Positions 18,240-47,566 of a DNA stretch of 64,000 nt are shown here, one piece after another. A program made the translations under genes and the position numbers. Numbering within the stretch: the stretch's first letter is position 1; the number at the start of each line of letters is the position of its first letter. Below the pieces are notes generated by a model, which ran no database searches, was not told the origin of the DNA, and was given only the letters and a program-made list of their open reading frames with translations. Source of the stretch: Escherichia phage Lindwurm. Where the stretch lies: the sequence record NC_134264.1; one strand, 5' to 3'.

Positions 18240-20114
18240 TTATTTAGCTCGAATATCCTGATGTTTCACTCTGCCCATCACCTCGTGCTGTTTACCGGGG
18301 TTAAATGGACGAGCACCCGGATTTCCAAGATACCCACAAACTCGACGAGTTACTTCAAGAGTTTCGGGGTCATGATTACCACAGATAGGGCACTTAAATC
18401 CATCTTCGGATGCTATTGTTTCACCTAAGAATCCACATTTACCACAAGAATCCACCGGAGTATTAATACCGAAGTAATGAACCTTACTAGCAGCATAATT
18501 AATAACCCATTCCAATGCATCTGGGAATCGTTTCATATCCGGTAATTCTACATAGGAAATACACCCACCAGAAGCAATCGGAGTAAAGTTAGATTCATAA
18601 TCAAATTTGACGTTAGGAGCAACTTTACGTTCCACATCAAGGTGGTGAGAGTTAGTGTAGTATCCTTTGGACAGAATATCTTCATGCTCCGGGAAATATT
18701 CACGGTCTAGACGACAAAAACGGTCACATAGGGATTCTGATGGTGTAGCATACAGGCTATAACCTAACTTAGTCTCTTCCTTCTTTTGATCGACCCTATC
18801 TCGCATGTACTGCAATACACGCTGAACAAACTTGATGCAGGTCTCGGACATTGTATCTACATCTTTGCCAAACATGAACTGTAGCATTTCATGGCAACCA
18901 ATATACCCTAGAGATACAGAAGCACGGTTATAGAAATGATCGAATACATATTCATCAGGCCCCAAGCGTAACCCAAAGGCTCCTGACATATAGAGGATGG
19001 GTGCAGCTTTAGCTTGAATGTATTTTAAGCGATCAACTCTCCACTCCAACGCTTTTAATGCTGTATCCACACGTAGCTCAAGCAAATCAAAGAATAGGTC
19101 AATATTTCCCTCAGCTTCGATAGCAATTCTAGGCAAGTTTACAGAAACAACACCTAAGTTATTACGACCGGCAGTTTCACCATCTTCTGTAGCAGCTAGG
19201 AATGAACGACAGCCCATAGAAACTTTATAGTCTCCAGTAACTTCTACAACCTTGTCATAACTGATATAATCTGGATACATACGTTCAGCAGTACATTTCA
19301 TAGCTAATTTCTTGATGTCATAATTAACATCTCCTGGTTTCATATTTACGCCATCACGAAGTACAAATACCAGTTTCGGGAAGATAGCTGTACGTTTATT
19401 GATACCTAAACCATCCATGCGTACTTTCAGTATTGCCCTCTGTACTAGACGTGCTTCCCAAGAAGTTCCTAGACCAAAACCAAAGGTAATAAATGGACTC
19501 TGACCATTAGAGTTGAACATGGTATTGATTTCATATTCTAAACCCTGACAAGCGTCATAGACTTCTTTTTCAGTCATCTCCGTAGCCATTACGGATGCTT
19601 TGGCTTCATCCTTAGTCCAACGTTTTGCAAACGCATGATTTTTATCATAGGATTTACGAACATAAGGGGCTAATACTTCATCAAGGCGATCTACAGAAGT
19701 ACCACCATACTGATGGGAGCTAACCTGAGTGATAATCTGAGCAGTAATAGCCGCCGCAGTAGTAATAGAGTTTGGAGTGCTAATTTCAGCATTACCAACC
19801 TTCATACCATTCTTCAACATATCTTCCAGAGCTACCAGACAACAGTTAGTCATGCCTAATGCAGCATAATCAGCATCATGGAAATGAATATCCCCAATCA
19901 TATGAGCATTTCGAATCTGAATTGGCATTTCTTCTAGAATCAGATACTTACTCAATTCACCTGCAAGCATATCCCTTTGTGTAGGGAAACGTTCTGAGGG
20001 TTTATTGGCATTATTAAATAGCAGCTCTTCATCTGCTGACCCTTCGATAATCTCTTTGCAGTTTCTAATTAACGCCTGCATTTCTTTATATTTTAGTTCT
20101 TCGTTACGATTCAT
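18240..20114 (-). CDS. nrdD: anaerobic ribonucleoside-triphosphate reductase (class III)
   Basis: 624 aa; C-terminal glycyl radical motif RVCGYLG; Zn ribbon CGKCGF...CPICG; GAAGGAGG RBS. Confidence 0.9.
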   Translation of the reverse strand: MNRNEELKYKEMQALIRNCKEIIEGSADEELLFNNANKPSERFPTQRDMLAGELSKYLILEEMPIQIRNAHMIGDIHFHDADYAALGMTNCCLVALEDMLKNGMKVGNAEISTPNSITTAAAITAQIITQVSSHQYGGTSVDRLDEVLAPYVRKSYDKNHAFAKRWTKDEAKASVMATEMTEKEVYDACQGLEYEINTMFNSNGQSPFITFGFGLGTSWEARLVQRAILKVRMDGLGINKRTAIFPKLVFVLRDGVNMKPGDVNYDIKKLAMKCTAERMYPDYISYDKVVEVTGDYKVSMGCRSFLAATEDGETAGRNNLGVVSVNLPRIAIEAEGNIDLFFDLLELRVDTALKALEWRVDRLKYIQAKAAPILYMSGAFGLRLGPDEYVFDHFYNRASVSLGYIGCHEMLQFMFGKDVDTMSETCIKFVQRVLQYMRDRVDQKKEETKLGYSLYATPSESLCDRFCRLDREYFPEHEDILSKGYYTNSHHLDVERKVAPNVKFDYESNFTPIASGGCISYVELPDMKRFPDALEWVINYAASKVHYFGINTPVDSCGKCGFLGETIASEDGFKCPICGNHDPETLEVTRRVCGYLGNPGARPFNPGKQHEVMGRVKHQDIRAK

Positions 20115-45492: not shown

Positions 45493-45674
45493 ATTTAAGG
45501 ACTAGTATGTTTAAACTACTAGTAGTTATCTGGTATAGTCAATCAAACAGAGCTAATACCTCCCACGTTATAGACTTTAATACTAAAAACGAAGCTGAAA
45601 AAGCATACGCTAATTTAATAGAACGTAATAAAGAATCTCGTAGTATAGTTTATGAAGTGACTAAACTCTATTAA
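45480..45674 (+). CDS. hypothetical protein
   Basis: 64 aa; 5' end overlaps tRNA-Thr 3' end. Confidence 0.4.
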   Translation: MPSTNLRTSMFKLLVVIWYSQSNRANTSHVIDFNTKNEAEKAYANLIERNKESRSIVYEVTKLY

Positions 45675-45682
45675 AAATTCAT

Positions 45683-45711
45683 TTGCTTTCTCTCTTATTT
45701 CTTGTTATAAT
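45683..45711 (+). promoter_or_regulatory. early-type promoter
   Basis: TTGCTT-17-TATAAT. Confidence 0.6.
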
Positions 45712-46528: not shown

Positions 46529-46723
46529 ATGTTAACAATTAAAATAATGTCAGCCAAGAATGGGGAACAGATTCATACAGGCAAAAGTGTAAGCTTTAAT
46601 CCTAGAAATAAAAGATTGGCTATAGTTGGAGTAGACCAAGCCATCTTTTTAAAAGAAGATGAAGTAGCATATGTCATGAACCAAACTGGTAAGACAGTTT
46701 CCGTATACTATGGAAAAGTATAA
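46529..46723 (+). CDS. hypothetical protein
   Basis: 64 aa with AGGAG RBS. Confidence 0.5.
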   Translation: MLTIKIMSAKNGEQIHTGKSVSFNPRNKRLAIVGVDQAIFLKEDEVAYVMNQTGKTVSVYYGKV

Positions 46724-46765: not shown

Positions 46766-47134
46766 ATGAAAGCATATCAAAATCTTAAATCTGGCGTAAT
46801 TAACCTTGTTCATGAAAATCAGATTATTCAGCTATACTCCGACAACGGTGAACTTAAACAGAAAGTTCTAGTTGAAGATCTAGAAGGTATCACACCGCAA
46901 TTCGATCCTGAATCCTTCCGTGAAGTTAAGGTGGAAGTCGTCCCTCAAATCGAAGGTGGTCAGCACCTAAATGTCAATGTGTTAAGCCGTGATCAGCTTT
47001 TGGATGCGCAGAAACATCCTGAAAAATATCCTCAGTTGACCATCCGTGTCTCTGGCTACGCTGTTCGATTTAATGCACTGACTCGTGAACAACAGAACGA
47101 CGTTATTAGTCGTACATTTACTCAGGCAATGTAA
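46766..47134 (+). CDS. grcA: autonomous glycyl radical cofactor (GrcA/YfiD-like)
   Basis: C-terminal half [56 protein letters not shown] nearly matches E. coli GrcA (from memory), including glycyl radical motif RVSGY. Confidence 0.8.
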
Positions 47135-47215: not shown

Positions 47216-47521
47216 GTGGATCGAGCATTAAGACGCCATCACCGGCAACGTGTGAAGAACAACCGTAAGAAGTATTGGACAGTCTTTCCACATGAAGAAA
47301 GCCCTAAGCGGTTAGGTATTATCACTACTACTCCTTGCATCTGTTCTTGTTGGATGTGTGGGAACCCTCGCAAATATTATAAGAATAGTAAAGCAGGTAT
47401 GAAAACCTCGGAGATCAGGAAAATGGAAGCGATGATTGCGGACATCACCTATACTGGTGGTATTTCAAATGATGAATTTGATGGCTTCGTAGCGTTCGAA
47501 GATGAACGCCCCGATCTGTAA
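47216..47521 (+). CDS. hypothetical protein
   Basis: 101 aa; GTG start with AGGAG RBS; Cys cluster CICSCWMC. Confidence 0.45.
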   Translation: MDRALRRHHRQRVKNNRKKYWTVFPHEESPKRLGIITTTPCICSCWMCGNPRKYYKNSKAGMKTSEIRKMEAMIADITYTGGISNDEFDGFVAFEDERPDL

Positions 47522-47529
47522 TTAATAAC

Positions 47530-47566
47530 AAACCCCAGCTATTGAATAAGTAGTCTGGGGTTTTTC
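47530..47566 (+). terminator. rho-independent terminator
   Basis: ACCCCAG...CTGGGGT stem followed by TTTTT. Confidence 0.65.

What the first reader, a model, noticed from the sequence alone, without database searches (positions are those of the whole stretch)
46766..47134. Phage-encoded GrcA/YfiD-like glycyl radical cofactor, alongside NrdD and no NrdG
The 122-aa product has a C-terminal half nearly matching the E. coli autonomous glycyl radical cofactor (HLNVNVL...[32 protein letters not shown]). The window also encodes a class III anaerobic RNR NrdD (18240-20114) with its own glycyl radical motif, but no radical-SAM activase. A spare glycyl radical module could repair oxygen-damaged host pyruvate formate-lyase, or conceivably NrdD, during infection.
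Basis: partly seen in the sequence, partly recalled or inferred. Interest (0 to 1): 0.7.

Follow-up and report, generated by a model that had tools for sequence, protein, structure and literature searches.

The report
T5-like phage GrcA spare-part protein
This is a real, well conserved phage copy of the small bacterial "spare part" protein GrcA/YfiD, which repairs oxygen-damaged pyruvate formate-lyase; the same kind of gene was characterised in phage T4 in 2001 and is already annotated in T5-like genomes, so the finding is correct but ordinary.

Summary
Window 46766..47134 (+) is an intact 122-aa ORF with a Shine-Dalgarno site. Its C-terminal 62 residues form a PFL-type glycyl-radical domain (Pfam Gly_radical E 4e-18; PDB YfiD 6OWR E 1.6e-30; 49/62 identical to E. 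coli PflB, 48/62 to GrcA). The motif RVSGYAV, with Gly97, is exact.

The window is a T5-like phage, 99.9% identical to Escherichia phage phiP4, where this gene is already named "autonomous glycyl radical cofactor". T5 itself carries it as T5.056. The protein is a full-length homologue (53% identity) of T4 vs.6/Y06I. Papers read here cite Wagner et al. 2001 for showing that Y06I is activated by host PFL-activase and restores oxygen-cleaved PFL.

In 31 T5-like copies the ORF is intact, with dN/dS 0.07. NrdD is at the stated coordinates but on the minus strand. No NrdG or PflA homologue exists in the window or in the whole phiP4 genome, a gene arrangement already reported for T5.

A role in repairing NrdD has no sequence support.

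The one fresher point is that in several other phage lineages the grcA-like gene sits inside nrdD/nrdG clusters. This fits an indirect link, in which PFL supplies the formate that class III reductase consumes. Novelty: already known. Interest: low.

The parts
46766..47134 (+). grcA-like gene (T5.056 orthologue; homologue of T4 vs.6/Y06I), 122 aa plus stop codon
   Evidence: ORF; Gly_radical, GrcA and phrog_1209 matches; 100% identical to phiP4 gp076 'autonomous glycyl radical cofactor'; dN/dS 0.068 across 31 orthologues
46766..46945 (+). N-terminal half (aa 1-60): divergent GrcA N-terminal region. By analogy with YfiD it is probably the part that recognises cleaved PFL.
   Evidence: Homologous to the T4 vs.6 N-half (shuffle z 6.4) and weakly to the E. 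coli GrcA N-half (z 3.0); Q5 and R52 nearly invariant in a 43-sequence alignment; dN/dS 0.11; AlphaFold2 predicts beta strands at pLDDT about 70; role of YfiD residues 1-60 from PMC8683613
46946..47131 (+). C-terminal glycyl-radical domain (aa 61-122): beta strand, Gly loop, C-terminal helix
   Evidence: 49/62 identical to PflB, 48/62 to GrcA; Foldseek best matches are YfiD 6owr and PFL 1cm5/2pfl; dN/dS 0.017
47045..47065 (+). RVSGYAV motif (aa 94-100). Gly97 (codon 47054-47056) is the predicted radical site, equivalent to GrcA G102 and PFL G734.
   Evidence: Sequence. RVSGYAV is the peptide substrate crystallised with PFL-activating enzyme, PDB 3CB8 (PMC10665898).
46755..46760 (+). Shine-Dalgarno sequence GGGGAG, 5 nt before the ATG
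   Evidence: Read directly from the sequence
45683..45711 (+). Sigma-70 promoter (TTGCTT, 17 nt spacer, TATAAT) matching T5 promoter P11; probable start of the transcription unit that contains the gene
   Evidence: Near-identical alignment to the promoter P11 annotated in T5 NC_005859
47531..47565 (+). Rho-independent terminator (AACCCCAG ... CTGGGGTT followed by a T run) that ends the unit
   Evidence: Identical to the terminator annotated in T5 downstream of T5.055
47216..47521 (+). Co-transcribed downstream ORF (T5.055 orthologue, 101 aa) with a Cys cluster, PCICSCWMCGNPRKYY; function unknown; context only
   Evidence: phrog_4499 E 9e-40, no Pfam hit; the only CxxxCxxC motif in the window
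18240..20114 (-). nrdD, class III anaerobic ribonucleotide reductase (624 aa, no ATP cone); context, and a possible consumer of PFL-derived formate
   Evidence: Pfam NRDD E 5e-172; 54% identical to E. coli NrdD; C91, M300, C302, four Zn cysteines and G594 conserved

Best explanation
[quoted passage not shown] It belongs to an early transcription unit with tRNA genes, running from a P11-type promoter to a rho-independent terminator.

Inferred mechanism: in an oxygen-limited host cell, host pyruvate formate-lyase (PflB) that has been hit by O2 is cleaved at Gly734 and loses its radical-bearing C-terminus. The phage protein binds this cleaved PflB, with the N-terminal half helping recognition, and supplies a replacement strand-loop-helix domain. 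Host PflA (a radical-SAM activase, not encoded by the phage) abstracts a hydrogen from Gly97 in the RVSGYAV loop. The radical then passes to PflB Cys419 and PFL activity returns.

The phage thereby keeps host fermentative production of acetyl-CoA/ATP and formate running during infection in microaerobic habitats such as the gut.

Shown here: the gene, its domain, its conservation, its homology to T4 Y06I, and the absence of a phage activase. Inferred: activation by PflA, binding to cleaved PflB, and the benefit to the phage.
For: Domain and family matches. Full-length homology to T4 vs.6/Y06I, 52.7% over 122 aa, E 4e-37, and to phrog_1209, E 1e-47. Y06I and YfiD are described in PMC8683613 as activated by PFL-AE and as restoring oxygen-cleaved PFL, citing Wagner et al. 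2001. The PFL-AE peptide substrate RVSGYAV is present exactly. 37 columns are invariant across 43 phage and bacterial GrcA sequences. The predicted fold of the C-half matches YfiD and the PFL C-terminus. Purifying selection is strong: dN/dS 0.068, with 31 of 31 ORFs intact. About 435 T5-like records carry it at 80% identity or more. No phage PflA or NrdG exists, so host activases are required. Promoter and terminator are conserved with T5.
Against: No experiment exists for the T5-like protein. It scores below NCBIfam's GrcA equivalog cutoff (121 against 170 bits) because its N-terminal half is divergent. It differs from host GrcA and PflB at 13-14 of 62 domain positions. The N-half is predicted to be folded (pLDDT about 70), whereas the YfiD N-half is disordered in solution. 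The benefit to a virulent phage with a short latent period has not been demonstrated.
Confidence: 0.75

Rival explanations
1. Same biochemistry, but the selected benefit is dNTP supply. By keeping host PFL active, the phage protein secures formate, the reductant of formate-type class III ribonucleotide reductase, for the phage NrdD. GrcA, NrdD and the host activases would then form one anaerobic nucleotide-synthesis module.
For: grcA-like genes lie within 1.3 kb of both nrdD and nrdG in 5 of about 21 stand-alone clusters from viral contigs. Specific cases: nrdD-grcA-nrdG in jumbo phages, nrdD-nrdG-vs.6-nrdC-nrdH in an Aeromonas phage, nrdA-nrdB-grcA in Vibrio phage D479, and 3.8 kb from nrdD in a 330-kb contig. 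T5-likes carry both genes in similar numbers of records. Formate supplies the reducing equivalents in most class III RNRs characterised, including those of E. coli and T4 (PMC4493059). The window NrdD is 54% identical to E. coli NrdD and keeps the residues aligning with C175, M382 and C384.
Against: In this window the two genes are about 27 kb apart, on opposite strands and in different transcription units. T4 also keeps them apart. The five linked clusters come from only two or three related lineages. Formate is normally abundant in fermenting cells. No experiment links the two.
Confidence: 0.35
2. The protein is a spare part for the phage's own NrdD (or is activated by NrdG), replacing the NrdD C-terminal glycyl-radical segment after oxygen cleavage.
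For: NrdD is a glycyl radical enzyme cleaved by O2 in the same way. The gene sits between nrdD and nrdG in jumbo phages. PMC8683613 speculates that spare parts may exist for other glycyl radical enzymes. Glycyl-radical loops of different enzymes superpose at about 1 A over 41-45 residues.
Against: There is no similarity to the window NrdD (blastp E 22). The motif is RVSGYAV rather than RVCGYLG, and there is no Zn-ribbon. Even in phages where the gene lies between nrdD and nrdG, the domain stays PFL-like, with 37 columns invariant with bacterial GrcA. This points to PFL and PflA as the constraining partners. T5-likes have no NrdG at all.
Confidence: 0.04
3. The protein is a decoy or modulator. 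It titrates host PflA, or occupies PflB, to redirect host pyruvate metabolism rather than to repair the enzyme.
For: The phage-type N-terminal half differs from host GrcA and is predicted to be folded. The gene lies in the early, host-takeover part of the T5 genome.
Against: The radical glycine and the whole activase-binding loop are invariant, which a simple blocker would not need. The T4 homologue restores PFL activity in vitro. The C-half dN/dS of 0.017 points to full catalytic constraint.
Confidence: 0.06
4. It is a non-functional remnant of a captured host pflB or grcA 3' end.
For: Many GenBank records label it 'pyruvate formate-lyase' or 'acetyltransferase-related'.
Against: All 31 orthologues are intact with dN/dS 0.068. 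The gene has its own RBS. DNA identity to host grcA and pflB is only 70-76%. The gene is conserved in T4-like, T5-like and jumbo phages.
Confidence: 0.01

Closest known systems
Bacteriophage T4 Y06I (gene vs.6), autonomous glycyl radical cofactor (Wagner et al. 2001, as cited in PMC8683613)
   Same: Stand-alone phage protein of about 120 aa, alignable over its full length (52.7% identity, same MKAYQ start, same REV-x-VE linker, same C-terminal domain). Same PHROG family (phrog_1209). Carried by a virulent coliphage that also has NrdD.
   Different: 49/62 identity in the radical domain. The T4 domain is almost identical to E. coli GrcA (60/62 aa; 95% DNA identity), whereas the T5-like domain is equidistant from GrcA, PflB and T4. 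T4 encodes its own NrdG and T5-likes do not. The T5-like protein has not been tested.
E. coli GrcA/YfiD (PDB 6OWR; TIGR04365)
   Same: Same size class and two-part architecture. 74% identity over residues 51-122. Identical RVSGYAV loop. The fold of the C-half matches.
   Different: The N-terminal 50 residues are only weakly similar (z 3.0), and the protein falls below the equivalog cutoff (121 against 170 bits). It is encoded by a phage and transcribed from a phage early promoter instead of the host's own stress-regulated grcA expression (own knowledge).
E. coli pyruvate formate-lyase PflB, C-terminal residues 698-759
   Same: 80% identity over 61 residues. The predicted structure superposes at 2.5 A.
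   Different: It lacks the roughly 700-residue barrel with the catalytic Cys418/Cys419, so it is not a formate acetyltransferase. GenBank labels such as 'pyruvate formate-lyase' for this gene are misnomers.
Short GrcA2/GrcA3-type cofactors (about 80 aa; NF008341, NF038360)
   Same: The radical domain matches these models (E 3e-34 and 5e-26). Comparable ORFs of 80-87 aa occur on other viral contigs.
   Different: Those proteins lack the 60-residue N-terminal half present here.

Membership tests
Autonomous glycyl radical cofactor GrcA/YfiD (IPR011140, TIGR04365) | Small stand-alone protein, not fused to a glycyl-radical-enzyme barrel | tested here: met
   122-aa ORF bounded by stop codons; the upstream neighbour is an unrelated 64-aa ORF
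Autonomous glycyl radical cofactor GrcA/YfiD (IPR011140, TIGR04365) | C-terminal PFL-type glycyl-radical domain with the RVSGYAV loop | tested here: met
   Pfam Gly_radical E 4e-18; 48/62 identical to GrcA and 49/62 to PflB; motif exact, with Gly97
Autonomous glycyl radical cofactor GrcA/YfiD (IPR011140, TIGR04365) | Score at or above the NCBIfam equivalog cutoff (170 bits) | tested here: not met
   121.1 bits; only residues 50-122 align. It is therefore a divergent family member, not an equivalog by NCBI's rule.
Autonomous glycyl radical cofactor GrcA/YfiD (IPR011140, TIGR04365) | N-terminal half homologous to the GrcA N-terminal region | tested here: inconclusive
   Direct comparison is weak (z 3.0; 2 of 300 shuffles reach the score). 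Homology is linked through T4 vs.6 (z 6.4 and 5.9). Q5 and R52 are nearly invariant across 43 sequences that include Vibrio, Aeromonas and E. coli GrcA.
Autonomous glycyl radical cofactor GrcA/YfiD (IPR011140, TIGR04365) | Glycyl radical installed by PFL-activating enzyme PflA | not testable with these tools
   Only the exact peptide substrate RVSGYAV can be shown
Autonomous glycyl radical cofactor GrcA/YfiD (IPR011140, TIGR04365) | Restores activity to oxygen-cleaved PFL | not testable with these tools
   Reported for YfiD and T4 Y06I only (PMC8683613)
Phage vs.6/Y06I family (phrog_1209) | Full-length match to the phage family profile and to T4 vs.6 | tested here: met
   phrog_1209 E 1.2e-47, residues 1-122 on profile positions 1-121; T4 vs.6 52.7% identity at 100% coverage
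Pyruvate formate-lyase / 2-ketobutyrate formate-lyase (as labelled in many GenBank records) | Barrel of about 760 aa with catalytic Cys418/Cys419 | tested here: not met
   Only PflB residues 700-760 align; TIGR01255 scores 85 bits against a cutoff of 994
Class III RNR component (spare part for NrdD, or the 'ribonucleotide reductase subunit' label) | Similarity to the NrdD C-terminal Zn-ribbon and RVCGYLG segment | tested here: not met
   blastp against the window NrdD gives E 22; no Cys4 site is present
Radical-SAM glycyl-radical activase (NrdG/PflA) encoded by the phage | A homologue in the window or the genome | tested here: not met
   tblastn best E 0.5-1 in the window and in all of phiP4. 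None of the 60 NrdG-bearing phage records sampled carries a name or annotation of a T5-like phage; two are of similar size (114 and 121 kb) but their NrdG is as similar to E. coli NrdG as that of T4-type phages, 47%. Agrees with PMC3653736.

The most novel reading that the evidence does not exclude
Phage GrcA-like cofactors are part of an anaerobic dNTP-supply module. Their selected role would be to keep host PFL producing formate, the stoichiometric reductant of the phage class III reductase NrdD, when oxygen intrudes. This would explain why the gene is repeatedly embedded in nrdD/nrdG (and nrdAB) clusters in jumbo, Aeromonas and Vibrio phages, and why it co-occurs with an activase-less NrdD in T5-like phages, which would then depend on two host activases (PflA and NrdG).
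Probability: 0.35. Interest if true: 0.45.

Novelty: already known. Interest (0 to 1): 0.2.

Why it matters
It matters little as a discovery. The gene class was described in T4 in 2001, the T5 copy has carried a glycine-radical annotation in the T5 reference genome record (NC_005859), and the nearest relative of this window already names it GrcA.

Its practical value is threefold:
- It corrects widespread mislabels such as 'pyruvate formate-lyase', 'acetyltransferase-related protein' and 'ribonucleotide reductase subunit'.
- It records that T5-like phages carry two glycyl-radical proteins (GrcA-like and NrdD) but no activase, so both must rely on host radical-SAM enzymes.
- It flags a recurrent gene linkage between phage grcA-like genes and ribonucleotide reductase clusters. 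This suggests a testable metabolic coupling through formate during infection in low-oxygen habitats such as the gut.

Tried and rejected
1. I searched for a phage activase. tblastn with three activases against the window and the full phiP4 genome found nothing. A CxxxCxxC scan found one motif, in a 101-aa ORF with no radical-SAM similarity, which is too short to be an activase.
2. I tested direct similarity to NrdD; there is none.
3. I asked whether the gene is a recent capture of host grcA or pflB. This is rejected for the T5-like gene (70-76% DNA identity), though it looks true for the 3' half of T4 vs.6 (95%).
4. Literature searches for T5-like phages together with formate-lyase, and for NrdD/NrdG together with 'bacteriophage T5', returned nothing. 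I found no paper that proposes the formate link for phages.
5. The structure prediction gave only a moderate model (pLDDT 68.8). The N-terminal half has no structural match, so nothing can be concluded about its fold.
6. The generic promoter/terminator scan missed both the real promoter and the terminator. Both were recovered by alignment to annotated T5 features.
7. Exact co-occurrence of grcA-like and nrdD genes per genome could not be computed, because whole-genome sets cannot be intersected with these tools. Only record counts were compared.

Full report
**Observation.** GGGGAG lies 5 nt upstream of the ATG. Every search identifies the C-terminal half as a PFL-type glycyl-radical domain:
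- Pfam Gly_radical, E 4e-18.
- NCBIfam GrcA (TIGR04365), E 3e-35, and the GrcA3, GrcA2 and PFL models.
- PDB: YfiD NMR structure 6OWR, E 1.6e-30, and E. coli PFL, E 6e-27.

The last 62 residues are 49/62 identical to E. coli PflB and 48/62 to E. coli GrcA. The loop RVSGYAV is exact and places the radical glycine at Gly97. [quoted passage not shown]

**What genome this is.** The region is 99.9% identical to Escherichia phage phiP4 (Demerecviridae, Tequintavirus), and 444 phage records match it at the DNA level. In phiP4 the gene is gp076, annotated 'autonomous glycyl radical cofactor'. Phage T5 itself carries it as T5.056, 'putative acetyltransferase-related protein, match to IPR001150'. The identical protein sequence is in NCBI from Escherichia phage Lindwurm. 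Other records label it 'pyruvate formate-lyase', '2-ketobutyrate formate-lyase' or 'ribonucleotide reductase subunit'. These are misnomers for a 122-aa protein that lacks the catalytic barrel.

**Relation to the known phage example.** tblastn finds homologues in 1583 phage records. About 435 are T5-like, at 80% identity or more. Most of the rest are full-length matches at roughly 50-56% identity in T4-like phages, including T4 vs.6. T4 vs.6 is Y06I. PMC8683613 summarises Wagner et al. 2001: YfiD of E. coli and Y06I of T4 receive a glycyl radical from PFL-AE, bind oxygen-cleaved PFL and restore its activity. These two remain the only validated spare-part proteins. The window protein aligns with T4 vs.6 from the first residue (MKAYQ) to the last, at 52.7% identity and E 4e-37. 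It matches the phage family phrog_1209 over its whole length, E 1e-47.

**The N-terminal half.** NCBIfam's GrcA model aligns only residues 50-122, and the score (121 bits) is below the equivalog cutoff of 170. Shuffle-controlled global alignments show that the N-half is clearly homologous to the T4 vs.6 N-half (z 6.4) and only weakly to the E. coli GrcA N-half (z 3.0). T4 vs.6 and GrcA are themselves related (z 5.9). In a 43-sequence alignment of phage and bacterial GrcA proteins, Q5 and R52 are nearly invariant. For YfiD, residues 1-60 are disordered in solution but are needed for binding cleaved PFL and for efficient radical installation (PMC8683613). By analogy, the phage N-half is the recognition element. 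AlphaFold2 predicts beta strands there at pLDDT about 70, but no structure matches that half, so I draw no conclusion about its fold. The C-half of the model matches YfiD, and matches PFL at 2.5 A rmsd.

**Is it a working gene?** All 31 T5-like copies retrieved from viral contigs are intact. Pairwise Nei-Gojobori dN/dS is 0.068 overall, 0.11 for codons 1-60 and 0.017 for codons 61-122. The gene lies in a transcription unit conserved with T5:
- A promoter matching T5 P11 at 45683-45711.
- Two small ORFs, then tRNA-Ile and tRNA-Met.
- A 64-aa ORF, then the grcA-like gene.
- A 101-aa Cys-cluster ORF.
- A rho-independent terminator at 47531-47565, identical to the one annotated in T5.

**NrdD and the missing activase.** ORF 18240..20114 is NrdD, but on the minus strand. 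It matches Pfam NRDD at E 5e-172 and is 54% identical to E. coli NrdD, without the N-terminal ATP cone. It retains the residues that align with E. coli C175, M382, C384, the four Zn cysteines and G681. No NrdG or PflA homologue is detectable in the window or in the complete phiP4 genome. None of 60 NrdG-bearing phage records sampled carries a name or annotation of a T5-like phage; two are of similar size, but their NrdG is as similar to E. coli NrdG as that of T4-type phages. [quoted passage not shown] The C-terminal 86 residues of the window NrdD are 60% identical to E. coli NrdD, including VTRRVCGYLG, against 49% for T4 NrdD. T4 needs its own NrdG (own knowledge: Young et al. 1994). This is consistent with use of host NrdG but does not prove it.

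**Mechanism.** The best-supported reading is the established GrcA mechanism applied to the host enzyme. Host PflA installs the radical on Gly97. The protein replaces the C-terminal radical domain of oxygen-cleaved host PflB. The radical passes to Cys419 and PFL activity resumes (mechanism as in PMC8683613 and PMC12338860). What is shown here is homology, motif identity, selection and the absence of a phage activase. Activation, binding and benefit to the phage are inferred.

The protein shows no similarity to the window NrdD (E 22) and lacks the Zn-ribbon. Its domain is held close to the PFL sequence in every phage lineage examined, with 37 invariant columns shared with bacterial GrcA. That points to PFL and PflA as the partners constraining it.

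**A link to ribonucleotide reduction after all, but indirect.** Looking beyond T5-likes, the grcA-like gene is often embedded in RNR clusters:
- nrdD-nrdG-vs.6-nrdC-nrdH in Aeromonas phage AsFcp_4.
- nrdD-grcA-(DUF4326)-nrdG in 350-kb Klebsiella and Salmonella jumbo phages.
- nrdA-nrdB-grcA in Vibrio phage D479.
- 3.8 kb from nrdD in a 330-kb contig.

In a scan of viral contigs, 5 of about 21 stand-alone grcA-like clusters (grouped at 80% identity) lie within 1.3 kb of both nrdD and nrdG. Three more have nrdA or nrdB within 10 kb. The five tightly linked clusters come from two or three related lineages, so the number of independent events is small. Formate supplies the reducing equivalents of most characterised class III RNRs, including those of E. 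coli and T4 (PMC4493059), and PFL is the cell's main formate source (established knowledge). A plausible selected benefit is therefore that the phage cofactor protects the formate supply for its own NrdD when oxygen intrudes. In this window the two genes are 27 kb apart and on opposite strands, so the window offers only co-occurrence as evidence. I rate this reading at about 0.35.

**Comparison and novelty.** The feature is a divergent member of the GrcA family and an orthologue-level relative of T4 Y06I. It fails one formal membership criterion (the NCBIfam equivalog cutoff) because of its N-terminal half, and it has not been tested biochemically. As a kind of thing it is already known and already annotated, and the NrdD-without-NrdG arrangement is also published. 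Interest is low (0.2). The residual interest lies in the RNR linkage and in the dependence of two phage glycyl-radical proteins on host activases.

Noticed in passing
window 47216-47521 (+): A 101-aa ORF lies 80 nt downstream of the grcA-like gene and in the same transcription unit. It has a basic N-terminus and the Cys cluster PCICSCWMCGNPRKYY, the only CxxxCxxC motif in the window. It matches phrog_4499 (E 9e-40, unknown function) and has no Pfam hit. phiP4 annotates only its last 32 aa (gp075); T5 annotates it in full as T5.055. It is too short to be a radical-SAM activase.
   Followed up: partly
L005:4001-4363 (T4 vs.6) compared with L008:2067-2450 (E. coli grcA): The last 186 nt of T4 vs.6 are 95.2% identical in DNA to E. 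coli K-12 grcA (90% at third codon positions; 60/62 aa), while the N-terminal half is diverged. This looks like recent recombination or gene conversion with the host gene. The T5-like gene shows no such signal (70-76%).
   Followed up: partly
L004:1365-4953; L045 and L051:6183-8830; L047:4656-8372; L054:2008-8366; L083-L085, L106, L130: In other phages the grcA-like gene is embedded in ribonucleotide reductase clusters. It lies between nrdD and nrdG in 350-kb jumbo phages, after nrdD-nrdG in Aeromonas T4-like phages, and after nrdA-nrdB in Vibrio phage D479.
   Followed up: partly
L039:1-243; L041:5920-6183; L042:5929-6186: Other viral contigs encode short (80-87 aa) stand-alone glycyl-radical proteins of the GrcA2/GrcA3 type. 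They lack the N-terminal half and carry variant loops (RVSGYAVNF, RVSGYCVAF).
   Followed up: no
window 18240-20114 (-): The phage NrdD lacks the N-terminal ATP-cone region of about 85 residues found in E. coli and Aeromonas-phage NrdD. It keeps all catalytic and Zn-site residues.
   Followed up: partly
window 46529-46723 (+) and 45507-45674 (+): Two small ORFs are present here and in phiP4 but absent from the corresponding positions in T5. One is a 64-aa ORF (phrog_3909) between tRNA-Met and the grcA-like gene. The other is a roughly 55-aa ORF between tRNA-Thr and the P11-like promoter.
   Followed up: no
L109, L111, L115, L117 (IMG/VR contigs): Some 'viral' contigs carry genuine pflB sequence, with PFL N-terminal similarity directly upstream of the glycyl-radical match. 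This is probably host DNA flanking prophages or mis-binned fragments, not phage grcA.
   Followed up: no
phiP4 PP993145.1 annotation (L001): Many small early-region ORFs in the closest GenBank record carry implausible product names, for example a 140-aa 'tail tape measure protein', a 94-aa 'tail sheath monomer' and a 62-aa 'antitermination protein Q'. These names should not be relied on.
   Followed up: no
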